A stretch of 18,141 bases of DNA from a virus (Duplodnaviria; Heunggongvirae; Uroviricota; Caudoviricetes). The stretch spans positions 1 to 18,141 of IMG/VR virus record IMGVR_UViG_2534682108_000010; one strand, given 5' to 3'. Positions 441 through 14,948 of the stretch are shown in pieces. Both the position numbers and the translations under genes were made by a program. The stretch's first letter is position 1. Every line of letters starts with the position of its first letter. The notes beneath the pieces are model-generated. The model was not told the origin of the DNA. It was given only the letters and a program-made list of their open reading frames with translations, and did not search any database.

Positions 441-540
441 TTATCACAGATGGTAAAAATCAGAACACGATAATAAAAATACCTGATGTATATTCATGCG
501 ACCCGCCCGCCACTCACTGAGGGCTTTTTTTTGCCCATAG

Positions 541-567
541 AAAAGCCCCTCCGGAGAGGGGCTTTTT
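541..567. terminator. Bidirectional intrinsic terminator hairpin
   Basis: gcccctc-cgga-gaggggc hairpin at 545-562 flanked by AAAA on one side and TTTTT on the other. Confidence 0.6.
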
Positions 568-1018
568 ACAGTGGTAGTGTAGACAATTTTGCATGGTGCC
601 GGATGCCTCCCGGTGAATTCTGCAATGACCAGACAGAATCCGCAACTTGCCTATACAATACGCAACCAAACATCTGTCATTATGCCCCGCCTCACAGGGG
701 GATTCACCATGCAAAATCATTTTTAACAAAACAGCATGTTATTCTCCAGTACCCGGCATAATGAAATGTGATGTTCTTAGCATTTTTAAAACCCCGAACT
801 TAGTGGTGATTATTTTTATTAGACACCCCTGTTTCACAGTAACTTTATTTTCTGTTTGGGCCACTCTGGCTCAATACTAAAATTATTAATTATCGACAAA
901 AATATAGTAAATAAATAAACAAGTTCCGAGAAAACCAATAACTATCATTGCTAATGCCAGCATAAATAGTTGTTGTGTGTTTATTTTTACGGTAGTGTAT
1001 TCAAAGTGTTGATTCCTG

Positions 1019-1751: not shown

Positions 1752-1827
1752 TGGAGCGGCCAGCTGGAATCGAACCCGCATCATCAGCCTGGAAGGCCGA
1801 GGTAATAGCCATTATACGATGACCTCA
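1752..1827 (-). tRNA. tRNA-Gly(UCC)-like sequence, probable pseudogene
   Basis: D-arm, anticodon arm (loop CTTCCAG, anticodon UCC) and T-loop closely resemble E. coli glyT, but the 5' acceptor strand (tgaggtc) cannot pair with the 3' strand (tggccgc) and the T-stem has a G-A mismatch. Confidence 0.5.
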
Positions 1828-1904
1828 TGGTGCGCCATACTGGATTCGAACCAGTGACCGATTGCTTAGAAGGCAATTGCTCTGTCAGGCCGAGCTAACA
1901 ACGC
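1828..1904 (-). tRNA. tRNA-Arg (anticodon UCU)
   Basis: Hand-folded cloverleaf: acceptor GCGTTGT/ATGGCGC (with G-U pairs), D-stem GCTC/GAGC, anticodon stem ATTGC/GCAAT with loop CTTCTAA, T-arm ACTGG-TTCGAAT-CCAGT, 3' CCA encoded. Confidence 0.85.
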
Positions 1905-1917
1905 TGAATACCGATAA

Positions 1918-1994
1918 TGGACCGCCATCGGGGACTTGAACCCCGCGCAGCCAGCTTCGAAGGCTGGCGCTCTGTCCCGATGAGCTAATGGCGG
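1918..1994 (-). tRNA. tRNA-Arg (anticodon UCG)
   Basis: Perfect acceptor stem CCGCCAT/ATGGCGG, D-stem GCTC/GAGC, anticodon stem CCAGC/GCTGG with loop CTTCGAA, T-arm CGGGG-TTCAAGT-CCCCG, CCA encoded. Confidence 0.85.
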
Positions 1995-2003
1995 TATCTG
2001 ATA

Positions 2004-2079
2004 TGGTGGCCCTTGCTGGATTTGAACCAGCGACCTGGCGATTATGAGTCGCTCGCTCTCACCACTGAGCTAAAGAGCC
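2004..2079 (-). tRNA. tRNA with CAU anticodon, ileX-like (tRNA-Ile2 / Met-type)
   Basis: Acceptor GGCTCTT/AAGGGCC, D-arm GCTC-AGTGGTGA-GAGC, anticodon loop CTCATAA, T-arm GCTGG-TTCAAAT-CCAGC; from the anticodon arm onward it is nearly identical to my recollection of E. coli ileX. Confidence 0.85.
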
Positions 2080-5384: not shown

Positions 5385-5993
5385 TTATTGCAACAGATTC
5401 TGACGGAAATATGGTAACACACGACTCCACTTATCATCCTGCCACGGTTGGAATTTTACATGCGCCGTTTCTCTGGCAAGGATTTCTCGCGCCCTGTTGA
5501 GTATCCGAGGATATTCTTGTTCGATTGAAGTGAATCTACCTGCTTCGCGATGCTCTGCGACCTGAAGAAGGGGCGTAACGTTCTGGCAGGCGGTTAACAT
5601 CGTATCACTTGCTCGCCATAACCAGGCGAGTGTGCAAAGTTCGTTATCAGTGAATTGTTTTGTGATTGGGGATTGTTGAACTTCTCGATCGAGAATATCC
5701 AGAACCCAGCGGCGGAATTCTTTGGCCACAGGAGTACGAGCAAACATGGCGATCAAATGGGCTCCGCGAAGGCTAAATACTCGAGACTCCTGCATTCCAC
5801 GAGGGGTGGTCACTTTGACCACCCTTGTCATCATATCTGTGAATTCATCCGAGTGCCGAGAGTAAATGCGCTGAACTGCTTTATCGTCCGCATATTCCAG
5901 TGCTAAACCAACTTCAGTGGCAGTAAGCCAAATTCTGTTATTGTGGCAAATCGGGGTAAACGTCGTTTTGTGGAATGCTAATTGAGTAGTCAT
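5385..5993 (-). CDS. Bro-N domain protein (antirepressor / Roi-like)
   Basis: N-terminal region FHKTTFTPICHNNRIWLTATEVGLALEYADDKAV...RVFSLRGAHLIAMFARTPVAKEFRRWVLDIL matches the Bro-N pattern; ATG with GAGGTG RBS. Confidence 0.7.
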   Translation of the reverse strand: MTTQLAFHKTTFTPICHNNRIWLTATEVGLALEYADDKAVQRIYSRHSDEFTDMMTRVVKVTTPRGMQESRVFSLRGAHLIAMFARTPVAKEFRRWVLDILDREVQQSPITKQFTDNELCTLAWLWRASDTMLTACQNVTPLLQVAEHREAGRFTSIEQEYPRILNRAREILARETAHVKFQPWQDDKWSRVLPYFRQNLLQ

Positions 5994-6149
5994 AGTATCA
6001 CCTCATCAGGTTAACCATCACCACCAACGACGCCAATCGACTGGTGGTGAACTGTGTAAGGTTGGCGTAACCGGCTACTCAAACCCGGCGCTTCCGAAGA
6101 AGCCCTCACACAGCCCACCATAATTTGGGCATAGCCGTGCTTAGCGCAC

Positions 6150-6170
6150 AAAAAAACCGCTTAACGCGGT
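6150..6170 (-). terminator. Possible rho-independent terminator (minus strand)
   Basis: Minus strand: accgc-gttaa-gcggt hairpin followed by TTTTTTT. Confidence 0.45.
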
Positions 6171-6412
6171 ATGCGTTGAGTAGTATCCCGGGACGCCAAT
6201 CCCGTGTGCCGATTTTGCGGCAACGCACAGAATATAGCGCCGGATAAATCATGTCGTCAACCCCAGTAAATGGACACCATGATGATCACAGCCATAGCTG
6301 CTACAACAGTTACAACTACCTCAGGCCAAAACATAACGATTTCCATATCACCTTTAGCCGCCAGACGAATAGAGACTCCCAATTCTGGCTGTCGAAGTAA
6401 AACACCGAATGT

Positions 6413-6805: not shown

Positions 6806-8308
6806 ATGACTCAAACTCCTCTATTACTTGCAATCATATTTTTATTGGTTGTTCTTGTTCTTTATATAGCTGCAATCAAACGCATCAAAAAAATACAATT
6901 AGAATTAAGTGATAGCAATCAAAAAAATGAAGAATACAAATCTCGCTTTGCAGATTATTTTAATGTAGAAGAAGAATGTAAGAAGCTTATTGAGAAAACA
7001 GAGCAAGAATGCTCCATAATAAAAGAAGAATCCCTAAAAGTAAAAGAAAATGCCAATAATGAACTAACAAACACCATTGAAAAAATGGATGGTATCAATA
7101 AACAAATCCAAGAGCTAAGAAGAACTTATAAAGAGAAGAAAGAAATATATGATAAACTAGTAAGGCAAATTTCTATTTATTCAGAAGATGTTGAGCTAGC
7201 CGAACTAGGATTTTACGAACCTCATTTTAATTTTGAAGATTCAGAGCAATTTAAAAACAAAATAAAATCCATCAGGGATGAACAGAAATTAATGCTGCGG
7301 GATAAAACCCACTCTGGCGCAGTATATTGTACAACCCAATGGACTGTTGAAGGCTCTCGAGCAGAGGGTAAAAAAATGACAGACAGAAATATCAGGCTAA
7401 CTACTAGAGCATTTAATAATGAATGTGATGCTGCAATTAGCAATTGCACGTGGAAAAACATCACTAAAATGGAAGAACGCATCACAAAGGCATTTGAGGC
7501 CATAAATAAACTAAACGAGCAAAATCACATATATATAAACACTAAATACCTCAATAAAAAACTTGAGGAATTGTGGCTTACCCATGAATATCGTGAGCAA
7601 AAACAGAAAGAAAAAGAAGAACAGGCAGAAATAAGGGCACAAATGAGAGAGGAGGAGCGTGCACAACGAGAAATAGAAAAGGCCATGCAAGACGCAGAGG
7701 CAGAAGAGCGCCGTTATAAAAAAGCAATTGAAGCTGCAAGAAAGGAAATGGAAAAAGTTACTGGTGACATGAAGCAGCGCCTCGAAAATCGCATTGCCGA
7801 ACTAGAACAGAGTTTGTCGCAGGCTGAATCAAAGCATCAAAGAGCATTATCCATGGCACAACAAACCAAACAAGGTCATGTTTATATTATTTCGAACATA
7901 GGTTCTTTTGGGGAGAATGTTTATAAAATAGGCATGACACGACGTCTTGATCCGCAAGACCGTGTAAATGAGCTCGGTGATGCATCTGTTCCTTTTATTT
8001 TTGATGTACATGCCATGATTTATTCGGAGGACGCTCCATCATTAGAAAAAAAACTACATGATGTCTTCGATAAAAAGAGAGTCAATCTTGTAAATCGTAG
8101 AAAAGAGTTTTTCTATGTTACTCTGGATGAGATCAAAGAAGCTGTTAAAAAACACTCTGATTCAGAAATTGAATTTATTGAGACAGCAGTCGCAAAAGAC
8201 TTTAATGAGTCATTGGCTATTCGTAATCATGAAAATAAAAAAAGTGACAACAGCAACTCATCAATTATACCTGAGCGAAAAATCCCAGAGTTTGCAGATG
8301 CAATTTAA
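6806..8308 (+). CDS. Membrane-anchored coiled-coil protein with C-terminal T5orf172 (GIY-YIG-like) domain, DUF4041-type architecture; candidate accessory/defence gene
   Basis: 500-aa ORF, ATG with AAGGA RBS; N-terminal hydrophobic helix LLLAIIFLLVVLVLYIAAI; long K/E-rich predicted coiled-coil; C-terminal GHVYIISNIGSFGENVYKIGMTRRLDPQDRVNELGDASVPFIFDVHAMIYSEDAPSLEKKLHDVFDKKRVN...EFFYV, recalled as the T5orf172 pattern; visibly AT-rich; opposite strand to all neighbouring genes. Confidence 0.8.
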   Translation: MTQTPLLLAIIFLLVVLVLYIAAIKRIKKIQLELSDSNQKNEEYKSRFADYFNVEEECKKLIEKTEQECSIIKEESLKVKENANNELTNTIEKMDGINKQIQELRRTYKEKKEIYDKLVRQISIYSEDVELAELGFYEPHFNFEDSEQFKNKIKSIRDEQKLMLRDKTHSGAVYCTTQWTVEGSRAEGKKMTDRNIRLTTRAFNNECDAAISNCTWKNITKMEERITKAFEAINKLNEQNHIYINTKYLNKKLEELWLTHEYREQKQKEKEEQAEIRAQMREEERAQREIEKAMQDAEAEERRYKKAIEAARKEMEKVTGDMKQRLENRIAELEQSLSQAESKHQRALSMAQQTKQGHVYIISNIGSFGENVYKIGMTRRLDPQDRVNELGDASVPFIFDVHAMIYSEDAPSLEKKLHDVFDKKRVNLVNRRKEFFYVTLDEIKEAVKKHSDSEIEFIETAVAKDFNESLAIRNHENKKSDNSNSSIIPERKIPEFADAI

Positions 8309-11477: not shown

Positions 11478-12170
11478 ATGAAAAAAGAAACTCTTGCTGA
11501 TCGCTTAAACCTAGCGATGGAACAATCTGGAATGTCTCAAGGCGCTCTTGCAAAGGCGTCTGGCGTAGCTCAACCCACAATCTGGAGACTGACAAGCGGC
11601 AACGCGCGCGGCTCAACAAAAATTGTTGAAATAGCTAATGCATTGGGTGTTCGAACAGAATGGCTCTCATCAGGCATAGGCCCGATGAGAAATGACGGTC
11701 AACAATCAGGGAAGCCTGCTGTCAGCCATTCCAAATACTTCAAAATTGACGTTCTTGATATAGAAGTCAGTGCCGGGCCGGGTGTAATCAACCGTGAGTT
11801 TGTAGAAGTTCTACGCTCGGTTGAGTACTCGTTTGACGATGCTCGTCACATGTTCGATGGCAGGAAGGCGGAAAATATCCGCATCATTAACGTGCGTGGT
11901 GACAGCATGTCAGGAACGATCGAACCAGGTGATCTGCTGTTCGTTGATATCACGGTTAAATCTTTCGACGGTGATGGTATCTATGCGTTTCTGTACGACG
12001 ACACAGCCCATGTAAAGCGTCTGCAAATGATGAAGGATAAGCTGCTGGTTATCTCTGATAACAAGAGCTACTCACCGTGGGACCCGATCGAGAAAGACGA
12101 GATGAACCGGGTGTTCATCTTCGGTAAGGTTATTGGGAGCATGCCGCAGACGTATAGGAAGCATGGGTAG
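11478..12170 (+). CDS. CI-like repressor (HTH plus S24 LexA-like autopeptidase domain)
   Basis: From ATG 11478: MKKETLADRLNLAMEQSGMSQGALAKASGVAQPTIWRL... (HTH); C-terminal VRGDSMSGTIEPGD and HVKRL recalled as the S24 Ser/Lys pattern; the ORF-track start at 11442 is a TTG. Confidence 0.85.
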   Translation: MKKETLADRLNLAMEQSGMSQGALAKASGVAQPTIWRLTSGNARGSTKIVEIANALGVRTEWLSSGIGPMRNDGQQSGKPAVSHSKYFKIDVLDIEVSAGPGVINREFVEVLRSVEYSFDDARHMFDGRKAENIRIINVRGDSMSGTIEPGDLLFVDITVKSFDGDGIYAFLYDDTAHVKRLQMMKDKLLVISDNKSYSPWDPIEKDEMNRVFIFGKVIGSMPQTYRKHG

Positions 12171-12216
12171 CGGATTAGCTAATCATTATGATGTTGTTCA
12201 AATTTAAGAGGTCCGC

Positions 12217-13065
12217 ATGTCTTCGATTTGGGGAAAAAAGTTGATGACGAAAGAACAAGAGTCAAACACTGATGAAGTGAAACCAGAGCAAGGAAGTTTG
12301 TTTGAATTAGAATTTCATGAATATACACCTTCAAGCTTAGGCACAGCACACCTTTCTGGTTTCGCTATTGCCACTGATGAAATGGAATATGCAGTTAAAA
12401 GCATGCGCTCCACCCCACCTTTTCCTGTACAAAACCCAACTCAAGTACCGGCAGCGGAATGGTTTTGCACAAATTTAGCTGAAAAATGCGGCATCGCTAC
12501 ACCTGTGTGCAAAATTCTCAAGTGTATTGCTAATGGGGAGTATGTTTTTGGCTCTCGCATAGAGTTTTCAGCCTGGAAATCTGGTCTCAATAGTCCTCAA
12601 TGGATAAATTTGCTCTCAAATGCTTCTGAATCCTTAAAGAAGCAACTCTGGGCAATTTATGCATTTGATCAGTTTGTATATAACATTGACAGACACCTCA
12701 ACAACTACTTATACATGGAAAACACCCGAGGCAATGTTATAGTTAAAACATTCGATTTTAGTCTAAGCTCTTTTGTTATAGGCTGGCCACGAAATACCCC
12801 TCATATACTACCAACAGACTCCAGTACAACAACAAACTGGACGATTGCTAAACAATTCATTGGCGACACTGATGATCTGAGAAAGTGCGCATTATCTGTC
12901 CTTGACAAAATTGAAAAAATTGGAGTTGAGGCTATATCTGATATACTTAACTCTATGCCTGAAGCATGGATGCCACCAATGCATAAGGAGTATTTTTTGA
13001 AGTGGTGGGACAGCGAGGAGCGAATCGATAGGCTAAATGCCATAAGACTGGAGATAACATCTTGA
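12217..13065 (+). CDS. Hypothetical protein with kinase-like catalytic-loop motif (HipA / PI3-PI4-kinase-like); candidate defence gene A
   Basis: 282-aa ORF 46 bp downstream of the repressor, AAGAGG RBS; motif NIDRHLNN followed 21 residues later by FDFS resembles the N-x-D-x-H-x-x-N ... D catalytic pattern of HipA-type kinases; AT-rich. Confidence 0.75.
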   Translation: MSSIWGKKLMTKEQESNTDEVKPEQGSLFELEFHEYTPSSLGTAHLSGFAIATDEMEYAVKSMRSTPPFPVQNPTQVPAAEWFCTNLAEKCGIATPVCKILKCIANGEYVFGSRIEFSAWKSGLNSPQWINLLSNASESLKKQLWAIYAFDQFVYNIDRHLNNYLYMENTRGNVIVKTFDFSLSSFVIGWPRNTPHILPTDSSTTTNWTIAKQFIGDTDDLRKCALSVLDKIEKIGVEAISDILNSMPEAWMPPMHKEYFLKWWDSEERIDRLNAIRLEITS

Positions 13066-13868
13066 AAACTTTCAAATACAGCTTAATCAGAGTTACACCG
13101 AACTTAGAGAAAGGTGAAACGATTAACGTTGGTTTGATCGTTTACCATGACTCTGACATAGACGTACGTATGCTCAATTCAGTTTCAAAACTTAAAGCGA
13201 TTGACAAAGATCTTACCTTAGATTACTTAGAGGATCTTTCGACCTCGCTTTTTGATTTGTCACAAAAAATCAACAATGCTGAACTTCTTCCTTGTCTTTT
13301 TAAGGGAGCATTATCGTTATCGTCATTTGGCATGTTCACTCTTCAAGCCAACGAAGATTACGAAGCTAAAGTTACTGATCTAATGAATCGGTTAGTAAAC
13401 CCACAAAAACAGCCACATAAACAGTTGAAAAAAAAGGTTTTTTCTGAATTAAAATCCACCTTTATACAACATGGAATTTTCAGTAAGTATTTTGAAGATC
13501 TTTCCCAACATAAAATCGTAGCTAATTATCCAATTAGTAATGAAGAAGGGTTAGTTGCAGATTTTTTGTTAAAAAATGGCAAATACCATCTTACAGAAAC
13601 ATTAGATTTTCGTTCTGAAAATATAAAAAAACAAATGGGTGAAGCTGCGATAAGTGTTTTAACAATTACTAAAGCCTACGAATTATACAATTCAAATATT
13701 GATTCATTTGTAATTTTTGCCGCTGAAACGACAGCACAAGAAAAGTCAGCAAAACAGCAGCTAAATCTACTGGAAAAACACGCTGATAATCTTATCAACG
13801 CATATAGCAAAGAAGACATGCGTTCATATTACGAAAAGATGCTGAATGCTGCCTCTATGTTACAGTAG
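13062..13868 (+). CDS. Hypothetical protein, partner of the kinase-like gene; candidate defence gene B
   Basis: 268-aa ORF whose TTG start overlaps the upstream stop (TTGA), GGAG RBS 8 nt upstream; N-terminus MKTFKYSLIRVTPNLEKGETINVGLIVYHD; followed by terminator 13896-13922; AT-rich. Confidence 0.75.
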   Translation: MKTFKYSLIRVTPNLEKGETINVGLIVYHDSDIDVRMLNSVSKLKAIDKDLTLDYLEDLSTSLFDLSQKINNAELLPCLFKGALSLSSFGMFTLQANEDYEAKVTDLMNRLVNPQKQPHKQLKKKVFSELKSTFIQHGIFSKYFEDLSQHKIVANYPISNEEGLVADFLLKNGKYHLTETLDFRSENIKKQMGEAAISVLTITKAYELYNSNIDSFVIFAAETTAQEKSAKQQLNLLEKHADNLINAYSKEDMRSYYEKMLNAASMLQ

Positions 13869-13895
13869 AAAAAACTGACTAATTTAATTAATAAC

Positions 13896-13922
13896 CCGGC
13901 CACCGTGCCGGGTTTTCTTTTG
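13896..13922 (+). terminator. Rho-independent terminator ending the repressor operon
   Basis: cccggc-caccgt-gccggg hairpin followed by TTTTCTTTT. Confidence 0.7.
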
Positions 13923-14039
13923 TCCCCTCCCCTCATCACACACCGCTCAAAAAACCACCACATCCCTGCTTCAGTTATCGCTATGCGATGCAAGTCACAA
14001 AATTAATTCTTTTTGCTATCAAACATTTAATATCAAAAC

Positions 14040-14095
14040 ACATCAGTCAATAGCAATAAGTATTGATATCACCAATAGCAATAGCTATTATCACC
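14040..14095 (+). promoter_or_regulatory. pL-like early-left promoter with operator repeats (OL-like)
   Basis: TTGATA (14060-14065)-17 bp-TATTAT (14083-14088) on the plus strand; AATAGCAAT motifs (as in the OR region) overlap the spacer, and TATCACC occurs twice. Confidence 0.6.
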
Positions 14096-14368
14096 ATATC
14101 GCAACAACACAACGATACGGCAACCACCTGATTCACCGTTGCGATGACCGCTTAGATCCGCAGTTTGAATTTCAGCAGGCTTCGGGGAGTGCGAGGGGTG
14201 AAACGGACGCGTGAACGTCGGTGTGACCAGCTGAAATTAACTCAACATTTCATACCTCAGTCGCTTCAACGAGGCGGCTTAGTTATGACAACCGGCGGCC
14301 ATCCACCGCCTGAATACGCGCAGAAGTCTCTATATGTTCAGCAGCCCAGCTTACGGGCAGGAGTTTTT

Positions 14369-14575
14369 ATGGTTCATCAACATTACGGAACACAGACCGT
14401 TAATCGCGGCGCGGTCATGCCAGGAATGCTGGTCAAACACAAAGATGGTACCTGGACTGCATCAGCTAATTTACGCGGACGGCTTTATCTGCATCGCGGC
14501 ATCGAGCGCACTTATACCCGTGATTTGCTCGTAGAAGTTTTTCTCGACGGACGCGGTAACGGCCTGAATCACTAA
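14369..14575 (+). CDS. Hypothetical early-left protein in the kil position (start uncertain; alternative ATG at 14285)
   Basis: ATG 14369 preceded by AGGAG with 5-nt spacer; ends just upstream of gam; no family recognised. Confidence 0.45.
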   Translation: MVHQHYGTQTVNRGAVMPGMLVKHKDGTWTASANLRGRLYLHRGIERTYTRDLLVEVFLDGRGNGLNH

Positions 14576-14651
14576 CCCCCCTTTCCTGTTTTCCTAATCA
14601 GCCTGGCATTTCGCGGGCGATATTTTCACAGCCATTTTCAGGAGTTCAGCC

Positions 14652-14948
14652 ATGAACGCTTATTACATTCAGGATCGTCTTAAGGCTCAGAGCTGGGCGC
14701 GTCACTACCAGCAGATCGCCCGTGAAGAGAAAGAGGCAGAACTGGCAGACGACATGGAAAAAGGTCTGCCCCAGCACCTGTTTGAATCACTCTGCATCGA
14801 TCATTTGCAACGTCACGGGGCCAGCAAAAAAGCCATTACCCGTGCGTTTGATGACGATGTTGAGTTTCAGGAGCGCATGGCAGAACACATCCGGTACATG
14901 GTTGAAACCATTGCTCACCACCAGGTTGATATTGATTCAGAGGTATAA
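14652..14948 (+). CDS. gam: Gam, short form (host RecBCD inhibitor)
   Basis: 98-aa translation [60 protein letters not shown]... matches the C-terminal 98 aa of lambda Gam; AGGAG RBS. Confidence 0.9.

What the first reader, a model, noticed from the sequence alone, without database searches (positions are those of the whole stretch)
12217..13868. Two-gene AT-rich operon in the rexAB slot downstream of the CI-like repressor: kinase-like protein plus unknown partner
Seen directly: two translationally coupled ORFs (TTGA overlap, both with SD sequences) lie 46 bp downstream of the CI-like repressor on the same strand and end at a clean intrinsic terminator just before the pL-like promoter. This is the position lambda uses for rexA-rexB, a slot that lambdoid prophages commonly fill with phage-exclusion cargo expressed in the lysogen. 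The segment is visibly AT-rich relative to the flanking repressor and Red genes. ORF1 carries NIDRHLNN followed 21 residues later by FDFS, which fits the N-x-D-x-H-x-x-N ... D catalytic arrangement of HipA-type (PI3/PI4-kinase-fold) Ser/Thr kinases, though at 282 aa it is much shorter than HipA. I do not recognise ORF2; its N-terminus (KYSLIRVTPNLEKGETINVGLIVY) loosely recalls DUF3037-type proteins, with low certainty. I cannot match the pair to a named defence or toxin-antitoxin system.
Basis: partly seen in the sequence, partly recalled or inferred. Interest (0 to 1): 0.85.

Follow-up and report, generated by a model that had tools for sequence, protein, structure and literature searches.

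The report
Divergent HipA-kinase/DUF3037 prophage defence pair
Just after its repressor gene, this E. coli prophage carries a two-gene cassette (a small HipA-type protein kinase and a DUF3037 partner) that is a distant, untested relative of the recently described HipAD/DS-6 anti-phage system, which occupies the very same slot in sister phages, so the finding is real but of a known kind.

Summary
There are two coupled ORFs, 12217-13065 and 13062-13868, with a TTGA overlap and a Shine-Dalgarno (SD) sequence before each. They start 46 nt after a CI-like repressor and end at a terminator (13893-13914) upstream of a pL-like promoter. GC is 0.37 against about 0.5 in the flanks.

ORF1 matches Pfam HipA_2, its AlphaFold model matches CtkA/HipA/HipT kinases, and the catalytic residues are invariant. 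ORF2 has a DUF3037 N-terminal domain.

The pair type is already named: PADLOC candidate PDC-M66, validated as DS-6 and renamed HipAD. Canonical HipAD sits in the same slot in phage PhiR5_1, and in E. coli genomes behind an identical cI protein. That slot is a sharp-edged cassette site that also holds SIR2, ImmA/IrrE+DUF4411, GevT/GevA, or nothing.

The window pair is a deep-branching lineage. The kinase is about 21% identical to DS-6A. The partner shares only the DUF3037 domain with HipD. Its C-terminal half shows no detectable sequence similarity to HipD's and models as a restriction-endonuclease-like fold.

The most likely function is a kinase toxin held in check by its partner, expressed in the lysogen, aborting phage infection. 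This allele has not been tested.

The parts
11478..12170 (+). CI-like repressor (XRE HTH plus S24 peptidase; RefSeq WP_001295669.1). It is the gene immediately upstream and the likely source of transcription (PRM-type) for the pair.
   Evidence: RefSeq annotation of the identical locus. The same cro-cI module is present in 718 of 5426 E. coli genomes.
12171..13886 (+). Exchangeable cargo cassette. Homology to sister prophages stops at the cI stop codon on the left and resumes at 13887-13895 on the right.
   Evidence: blastn of the window against L002, L003, L005 and L012-L015 gives flanks of 90-99% identity and an unrelated centre.
12206..12211 (+). Shine-Dalgarno AAGAGG for ORF1.
   Evidence: Read from the sequence.
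12217..13065 (+). ORF1: a 282-aa HipA_2-type Ser/Thr kinase, the predicted toxin/effector. Invariant residues are K61, E81, D151, N156, D158, R159, H160, N163 and D180.
   Evidence: Pfam HipA_2. hhalign against DS-6A gives probability 96.5%. AF2 pLDDT is 87 and pTM 0.84. Foldseek returns CtkA, HipA and HipT. Invariant columns come from the alignment.
13050..13053 (+). Shine-Dalgarno GGAG for ORF2, lying inside the 3' end of ORF1.
   Evidence: The GGAG is conserved in five of the six relatives examined, canonical HipAD included; the sixth, L010, has no exact GGAG.
13062..13868 (+). ORF2: a 268-aa partner, the predicted antitoxin/regulator. Residues ~1-120 form the DUF3037 domain. Residues ~125-268 form an alpha/beta domain with a restriction-endonuclease-like fold, with conserved H150, D/E167, K171, H176, E179 and D182.
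13893..13923 (+). Intrinsic terminator (hairpin 13893-13914 plus a T-rich tail). It belongs to the conserved phage backbone rather than to the cassette.
   Evidence: Terminator scan. It falls within the right-hand flank shared with phages carrying other cargo.
14063..14091 (+). pL-like promoter (TTGATA-17-TATTAT) driving kil-gam-bet-exo.
   Evidence: Promoter scan, 10 of 12 matches. Gene order comes from the RefSeq annotation.

Best explanation
The two genes form a HipAD-type (PDC-M66 / DS-6 class) kinase-partner module carried as lysogen-expressed cargo in the slot that lambda uses for rexAB. ORF1 is an active HipA_2-family Ser/Thr kinase whose activity is harmful to the cell. ORF2 is made by translational coupling in step with ORF1. 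It binds the kinase through, or together with, its DUF3037 domain and keeps it inactive. Both are probably read through from the cI (PRM-type) transcript, so they are present in the lysogen. When another phage infects, inhibition is relieved. The kinase then phosphorylates an essential host (or phage) target, by analogy with HipA and HipT probably part of the translation machinery. Growth of the infected cell and of the phage stops. Shown here: the gene layout, family and fold assignments, conservation of the catalytic residues, conservation of the pair and its start/stop overlap, and the cassette nature of the slot. Taken from published work on relatives: anti-phage protection, its dependence on the kinase catalytic Asp, and toxicity when the DUF3037 gene is deleted. 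Inferred: co-transcription with cI, the trigger, the target, and whether this divergent allele protects at all.
For: Kinase: Pfam HipA_2 is above its cut-off. hhalign of the ORF1 family against DS-6A gives probability 96.5%, E 7.8e-10. The AF2 model is confident, with pLDDT 87.2 and pTM 0.84. Its best PDB matches are CtkA 3akk, HipA 3dnt/3tpv, HipT(Lp) 8ezr and PI4K-II. K61, D158, H160, N163 and D180 are invariant in 34 homologues down to 32% identity. D158 aligns with DS-6A D139, and the D139A mutation abolishes defence in DS-6 (PMC13092281).

Partner: all 31 family members match DUF3037. ORF2 matches PDC-M66B at 2.6e-8. hhalign against the HipD family gives 95.8% over the N-terminal 139 residues.

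Operon logic: the order kinase then DUF3037 is kept in all six relatives examined, including canonical HipAD. The start/stop overlap is NTGA (4 nt) in four of them and 8 or 17 nt in the other two. A GGAG SD is kept in five of the six.

Slot: phage PhiR5_1 and E. coli WP5-W18-ESBL-11 carry canonical HipAD between cI and the same terminator/pL DNA. In WP5-W18-ESBL-11 the cI protein has the same accession. Other occupants are SIR2, ImmA/IrrE+DUF4411, GevT/GevA, or nothing.

Published function of relatives: DS-6 protects against Bas1. The Retron-Sda1 HipA/DUF3037 pair protects against Bas51 on its own, and deleting its DUF3037 gene is toxic.

Relatives at 87% and 73% identity in Klebsiella and in an Enterobacteriaceae MAG also sit directly after a CI-like repressor in Rac-like prophages.
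Against: This allele has not been tested, and it is far from the validated ones. BLASTP identity to DS-6A is 21% over 117 residues, E 0.015. The HipA_2 score is only 28.7 bits against 258 for DS-6A. PDC-M66A scores only 15.7 bits, and the kinase scores slightly better on PDC-M03A. The C-terminal half of ORF2 shows no detectable similarity to that of HipD (hhalign probability 0.6%), so the regulatory or sensing part may work differently. No ORF1-ORF2 complex could be modelled here. No promoter or transcript data were available, so expression in the lysogen is inferred from position alone. The primary HipAD paper (Brenes & Laub 2025) is not in the library and could not be read.
Confidence: 0.7

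Rival explanations
1. The pair is a conventional toxin-antitoxin addiction or persistence module, like hipBA. Its main role would be to stabilise the prophage or to induce dormancy, not to exclude other phages.
For: The kinase has the HipA-family fold. Deleting the DUF3037 gene of a relative is toxic. The 44%-identical relative in L009 lies beside recBCD-like helicase genes, with no phage genes in the 6-kb flanks. The 36%-identical relative in L010 lies next to an IS element.
Against: The slot is filled interchangeably with defence genes (SIR2, canonical HipAD, and GevT/GevA, annotated as a toxin-antitoxin pair) in otherwise near-identical prophages. Two relatives of the same architecture gave measurable, kinase-dependent phage protection. 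There is no HipB-like HTH autorepressor. The two roles are not mutually exclusive.
Confidence: 0.12
2. The pair is a two-activity system. The C-terminal restriction-endonuclease-fold domain of ORF2 would be an active nuclease or a DNA sensor, and the kinase would regulate it or be regulated by it. On this reading ORF2 is not merely an antitoxin.
Confidence: 0.13
3. The pair is inert or decaying cargo: a pseudokinase pair with no present function.
For: The match to HipA_2 is marginal. RefSeq labels ORF1 'hypothetical protein'.
Against: Both ORFs are intact. The catalytic residues are invariant. The pair is identical in 24 E. coli genomes and conserved across Enterobacterales, Vibrio and beyond. 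The ORF2 architecture has 208 representative clusters at E of 1e-30 or better.
Confidence: 0.05

Closest known systems
HipAD = DS-6 (E. coli WP_000389051.1 kinase plus WP_000210934.1 DUF3037 protein; 'HipA toxin / HipD antitoxin' of phage PhiR5_1, PV340545.1). Sources: DeWeirdt et al. 2026 (PMC13092281); Brenes & Laub 2025 (pmid 40409266, not readable here).
   Same: Both have a HipA_2-family kinase followed by a ~270-aa protein with an N-terminal DUF3037 domain, and an NTGA start/stop overlap with a GGAG SD. Both occupy the same slot between cI and the same terminator/pL DNA of lambdoid prophages, in one case behind the identical cI protein. The catalytic Asp aligns (D158 with D139).
   Different: The kinases are only about 21% identical. 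The motif here is N-I-D-R-H-L-N-N, against N-A-D-R-T-L-T-D in DS-6A. HipA_2 scores 28.7 bits here against 258. The partners share only the DUF3037 domain, and their C-terminal halves show no detectable similarity (hhalign 0.6%). The DNA is found in 24 of 5426 E. coli genomes, against 284 for canonical HipAD. This allele is untested.
PADLOC phage defence candidate PDC-M66 (Payne et al. 2024, bioRxiv 10.1101/2024.01.29.577857) and the HipA/DUF3037 pair next to Retron-Sda1 (PMC12548924).
   Same: Both proteins hit the M66A and M66B models. The two-gene architecture is the same. The Sda1 pair works as a stand-alone defence, and deleting its DUF3037 gene is toxic.
   Different: The hits are weak: A at 15.7 bits and B at 31.7 bits over residues 1-190, against 53 and 57 bits for DS-6. 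The kinase scores slightly better on PDC-M03A. There is no retron nearby.
HipBA and HipBST type II toxin-antitoxin kinases (E. coli HipA, HipT; Legionella HipT).
   Same: The kinase fold and the catalytic D-x-H-x-x-N ... D arrangement are shared. So is the logic of a toxic kinase neutralised by a protein partner.
   Different: There is no HipB HTH antitoxin and no HipA N-terminal subdomains or HipS. The partner is encoded downstream, not upstream. The target is unknown.
Lambda rexA-rexB.
   Same: The position (directly downstream of cI, before the terminator and pL) and the presumed expression in the lysogen as exclusion cargo.
   Different: There is no sequence or fold relationship. RexAB is a sensor plus membrane ion channel pair, not a kinase system.

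Membership tests
HipAD / DS-6 / PDC-M66 (HipA-like kinase + DUF3037 defence pair) | First gene encodes a short HipA_2-family (PF20613) kinase. | tested here: met
   PF20613 scores 28.7 bits against a cut-off of 27. hhalign against DS-6A gives probability 96.5%. The fold matches CtkA, HipA and HipT. The match is marginal at the single-sequence level.
HipAD / DS-6 / PDC-M66 (HipA-like kinase + DUF3037 defence pair) | The catalytic Asp required for defence (D139 in DS-6A) is present. | tested here: met
   D158 aligns with D139 and is invariant in 34 homologues, together with K61, H160, N163 and D180.
HipAD / DS-6 / PDC-M66 (HipA-like kinase + DUF3037 defence pair) | Second gene encodes a protein with an N-terminal DUF3037 (PF11236) domain. 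| tested here: met
   PF11236 scores 38.5 bits against a cut-off of 22.6, and all 31 family members match. hhalign against the HipD family gives 95.8% over residues 2-139.
HipAD / DS-6 / PDC-M66 (HipA-like kinase + DUF3037 defence pair) | The C-terminal half of the partner is homologous to that of HipD (called DUF1829-like by its authors, HHpred probability 78%). | tested here: not met
   hhalign of the two C-terminal sub-alignments gives probability 0.6%. No DUF1829 hit appears in either family with hmmscan.
HipAD / DS-6 / PDC-M66 (HipA-like kinase + DUF3037 defence pair) | Gene order kinase then DUF3037, with overlapping stop and start codons. | tested here: met
   TTGA overlap here. ATGA in canonical HipAD (L005, L012). 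Overlaps of 4 to 17 nt in L006, L007, L009, L010 and L011.
HipAD / DS-6 / PDC-M66 (HipA-like kinase + DUF3037 defence pair) | Both proteins are recognised by the PADLOC PDC-M66A and PDC-M66B models. | tested here: inconclusive
   M66B: E 2.6e-8, 31.7 bits. M66A: E 1.6e-3, 15.7 bits, below the PDC-M03A hit at 26.5 bits. DS-6 scores 53 and 57 bits. PADLOC's own score thresholds are not given by the tool.
HipAD / DS-6 / PDC-M66 (HipA-like kinase + DUF3037 defence pair) | Kinase-dependent protection against phage, and toxicity of the kinase without its partner. | not testable with these tools
   Known only for relatives (PMC13092281, PMC12548924). An experiment is required.
HipBA type II toxin-antitoxin | An upstream HipB HTH antitoxin/autorepressor, and a full-length HipA (~440 aa) with N-terminal subdomains. 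| tested here: not met
   ORF1 is 282 aa with no match to an N-terminal HipA domain. ORF2 lies downstream and has no HTH family match.
Lambda RexAB | Homology to RexA and RexB. | tested here: not met
   No Rex family match in Pfam, NCBIfam or PADLOC. Only the position is shared.

The most novel reading that the evidence does not exclude
The pair may be a distinct subtype of the HipA/DUF3037 systems. In it, the partner's C-terminal restriction-endonuclease-fold domain, with conserved D/E167, K171, H176, E179 and D182, would be a working nuclease or a DNA or nucleotide sensor. Phage recognition or killing would then involve a kinase-nuclease partnership rather than simple toxin-antitoxin release. 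Alternating HipAD-type alleles behind the same cI would then reflect diversification of what is sensed.
Probability: 0.15. Interest if true: 0.6.

Novelty: new member of a known kind. Interest (0 to 1): 0.4.

Why it matters
It adds a deep-branching, naturally occurring second lineage of the HipA-kinase/DUF3037 defence architecture, found at exactly the locus where the validated HipAD sits. That gives a ready-made comparison of two alleles behind the same repressor. The comparison could show which parts of the system are essential (the kinase core and the DUF3037 domain) and which are interchangeable (the partner's C-terminal domain, possibly the sensing part). It also documents the cI-to-terminator interval of these ydaS/ydaT-type lambdoid prophages as a sharp-edged hotspot for defence cassettes. 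The kinase target, the trigger and the role of DUF3037 are not reported in the papers I could read for any member. The primary HipAD paper (Brenes & Laub 2025) could not be read.

Tried and rejected
1. Sequence search of the ORF1 and ORF2 family profiles against PDB sequences gave only marginal hits: HipT(Lp) at E 0.6 for ORF1 and nothing meaningful for ORF2. Fold comparison was needed instead.

2. NCBIfam gave no usable hit for either protein.

3. No phage genome record holds the pair, by megablast or by tblastn with ORF1.

4. I tried to read Brenes & Laub 2025 by PubMed id and by DOI. It is not held, so what that paper shows about HipAD's trigger or target is unknown to me.

5. I looked for kinase-DUF3037 fusion proteins as independent evidence of a functional link. 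The two candidates, P0311 and P0022, have garbled middle or terminal segments and look like frameshift or gene-calling artefacts, so I set them aside.

6. I looked for DUF1829 or any PD-(D/E)xK Pfam family in the C-terminal halves of both partner families and found none.

7. The window's RefSeq protein accessions are absent from the held DefensePredictor supplements. Some of those files are truncated, so this is weak evidence that the allele is untested.

8. A promoter-like site inside ORF1 (12716-12743, 9 of 12 matches) was not pursued. The scan found fewer sites than the shuffled expectation.

Full report
**1. The observation**

The window is a lambdoid prophage integrated in ynfG of E. coli. 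It is 100% identical over the tested stretch to strain Res13-Lact-PEA12-26 and to other genomes. On the + strand the order is:
- a CI-like repressor (11478-12170);
- ORF1 (12217-13065, 282 aa);
- ORF2 (13062-13868, 268 aa);
- a hairpin terminator (13893-13914, followed by a T-rich tail);
- a pL-like promoter (14063-14091);
- kil, gam, bet, exo and int.

ORF2's TTG start overlaps ORF1's TGA stop, giving TTGA. Each ORF has an SD sequence at a sensible distance: AAGAGG 5 nt before ORF1 and GGAG 8 nt before ORF2. The pair has GC 0.37, against 0.48 for cI and 0.51 for the Red genes.

**2. What the proteins are**

*ORF1.* It passes the Pfam HipA_2 ('HipA-like kinase') cut-off narrowly, at 28.7 bits against 27. 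An alignment of 34 homologues, down to 32% identity, has invariant K61, E81, D151, N156, D158, R159, H160, N163 and D180. This is the ATP-binding lysine plus the D-x-H-x-x-N catalytic loop and the metal-binding Asp expected of HipA-type kinases. The AlphaFold2 model built from that alignment is confident, with pLDDT 87.2 and pTM 0.84. Its best PDB matches are all at probability 1.0:
- H. pylori CtkA;
- E. coli and Shewanella HipA;
- Legionella HipT;
- type II PI4-kinases.

The kinase reading is therefore supported by sequence, motif and fold. The short length is a property of the HipA_2 family.

**3. The pair type is already known**

- *PADLOC.* ORF2 matches PDC-M66B at E 2.6e-8. ORF1 matches PDC-M66A weakly at E 1.6e-3, and PDC-M03A slightly better. 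PDC systems are untested candidates from Payne et al. 2024.
- *The Retron-Sda1 study.* It reports that DUF3037 is strongly associated with HipA-like kinases. Such a pair protects E. coli against Bas51 without the retron, deleting the kinase abolishes defence, and deleting the DUF3037 gene is toxic (PMC12548924).
- *DefensePredictor.* It validated DS-6, made of WP_000389051.1 and WP_000210934.1. It showed that the D139A kinase mutant loses defence. It states that the same laboratory found the system independently in prophages and renamed it HipAD (Brenes & Laub 2025) (PMC13092281). I could not read the Brenes & Laub paper.

**4. Same slot, different lineage**

A tblastn search with DS-6A finds phage PhiR5_1 at 100% identity, annotated 'HipA toxin' and 'HipD antitoxin'. 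Its layout is cI, HipA, HipD, Kil, Gam, Bet, Exo. The DNA just after HipD is 92.5% identical to window 13887-14800. In E. coli WP5-W18-ESBL-11, canonical HipAD follows a cI protein with the same RefSeq accession as the one in the window's genome (WP_001295669.1).

The window's proteins are nevertheless very far from the canonical pair:

| Comparison | Window pair | DS-6 / HipAD |
|---|---|---|
| Kinase against DS-6A (BLASTP) | 21% identity over 117 aa, E 0.015 | reference |
| Partner against DS-6B (BLASTP) | only the first 22 aa align | reference |
| HipA_2 score | 28.7 bits | 258 bits |
| DUF3037 score | 38.5 bits | 84.6 bits |
| Catalytic loop | NIDRHLNN | NADRTLTD |

Profile comparisons recover homology for the kinase (96.5%) and for the DUF3037 domain plus linker (95.8% over residues 2-139). 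They do not recover it for the C-terminal halves of the partners (0.6%). So the shared parts are the kinase core, the DUF3037 domain, the gene order and the overlapping-stop/start coupling. In canonical HipAD that overlap is ATGA with an upstream GGAG. The partner's C-terminal domain is either replaced or has diverged beyond recognition.

**5. The slot is a cassette site**

The same cro-cI module occurs in 718 of 5426 complete E. coli genomes. The window's pair occurs in 24 and canonical HipAD DNA in 284. Pairwise blastn puts the left boundary exactly at the cI stop codon (12170) and the right boundary at 13887-13895, the foot of the terminator hairpin.

Between these boundaries, sister elements carry:
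- canonical HipAD (L005, L012);
- ImmA/IrrE plus DUF4411 (L013);
- a 353-aa protein plus an ASCH protein, annotated GevT/GevA in PhiR47_2 (L002, L004, L014);
- a SIR2 protein, in O157:H7, where the right-hand homology resumes only at 14132 (L015);
- about 120 bp of nothing (PhiR34_1, L003).

The terminator therefore belongs to the backbone, and the 'variable cargo in the rexAB slot' reading is correct.

**6. Distribution of this lineage**

Homologues of both proteins occur as adjacent pairs across Enterobacterales, Vibrio, Gallaecimonas and metagenomes.
- The Klebsiella copy (87% identical) and an Enterobacteriaceae MAG copy (73%) again sit directly after a CI-like repressor, in Rac-like prophages.
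- A Vibrio copy lies elsewhere in a prophage.
- Two distant copies show no phage genes in their 6-kb flanks. One lies beside recBCD-like helicase genes and one beside an IS element.
- A profile of full-length ORF2 finds 208 representative clusters at E of 1e-30 or better and 764 at E of 1e-3 or better. Nearly all of the 150 listed are ~270-300 aa full-length matches.

This two-domain partner is therefore a sizeable family of its own.

**7. Mechanism**

The best-supported model is a kinase toxin restrained by its DUF3037 partner. Both would be expressed in the lysogen, plausibly by read-through from cI: the gap is 46 nt and contains no terminator or promoter-like site. The kinase would be released on infection to arrest the cell. 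Steps taken from relatives or from inference are marked as such in the explanation section.

The main open alternative is that the nuclease-fold domain of ORF2 is catalytically active or acts as a sensor. The target, the trigger and the function of DUF3037 are not reported in the papers I could read.

**8. Verdict**

The finding is real and was read correctly. It belongs to a kind that was named and validated in 2025-2026, and it sits in the same slot as the validated system. It is a new, divergent and untested member, arguably a subtype because of the partner's different C-terminal domain. Interest is moderate.

Noticed in passing
window 6806-8308 (+): An AT-rich (GC 0.35) 500-aa ORF, on the strand opposite to ren/P/O, is a full-length PD-Lambda-1 defence protein. 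PADLOC gives 658 bits. Pfam gives DUF4041 plus T5orf172/MUG113. The prophage therefore carries a second, already known defence gene.
   Followed up: partly
window 12171-13886, compared with L002-L005 and L012-L015: The interval from the cI stop to the terminator is a sharp-edged exchange site. Behind the same cro-cI module, different genomes carry canonical HipAD, ImmA/IrrE+DUF4411, GevT/GevA (a 353-aa protein plus an ASCH protein), SIR2, or nothing. The ImmA/IrrE+DUF4411 and SIR2 occupants were not examined further.
   Followed up: partly
window 6040-6222 (-) and 5385-5993 (-): Rfam finds a C4 antisense RNA (74.8 bits) and isrK (58.7 bits) directly upstream of a Bro-N/P22AR_C antirepressor-like ORF. 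This resembles a P1/P7-style antisense-controlled antirepressor module inside a lambdoid prophage.
   Followed up: no
window 1752-2079 (-): ARAGORN and Rfam both find four tRNA genes: Gly-tcc, Arg-tct, Arg-tcg and a cat anticodon that RefSeq calls Ile. RefSeq annotates only three in the identical locus. The Gly-tcc call at 1752-1826 is the weakest, at 38 bits.
   Followed up: partly
window 533-739 (-): A full-length match to the sRNA family STnc100 (141.6 bits) lies in the late-region end of the window.
   Followed up: no
window 14092-14368: RefSeq annotates no N-like antiterminator gene between the pL-like promoter and kil. There is a ~280-nt leader, and the kil start differs between records (207, 291 or 387 nt). 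How early-left transcription passes terminators in this phage type was not examined.
   Followed up: no
window 12217 vs 12244: RefSeq starts ORF1 at the second ATG (273 aa). The upstream ATG has a strong AAGAGG SD, and the extra residues (MSS.WG..) are conserved in close relatives. DNA similarity to the Klebsiella copy also extends 33 nt upstream of 12217.
   Followed up: partly
P0311 (541 aa) and P0022 (326 aa), database proteins: These look like fusions of the kinase and the DUF3037 partner. Their middle or terminal segments look out of frame, so they are probably frameshift or gene-calling artefacts rather than true fusions.
   Followed up: partly
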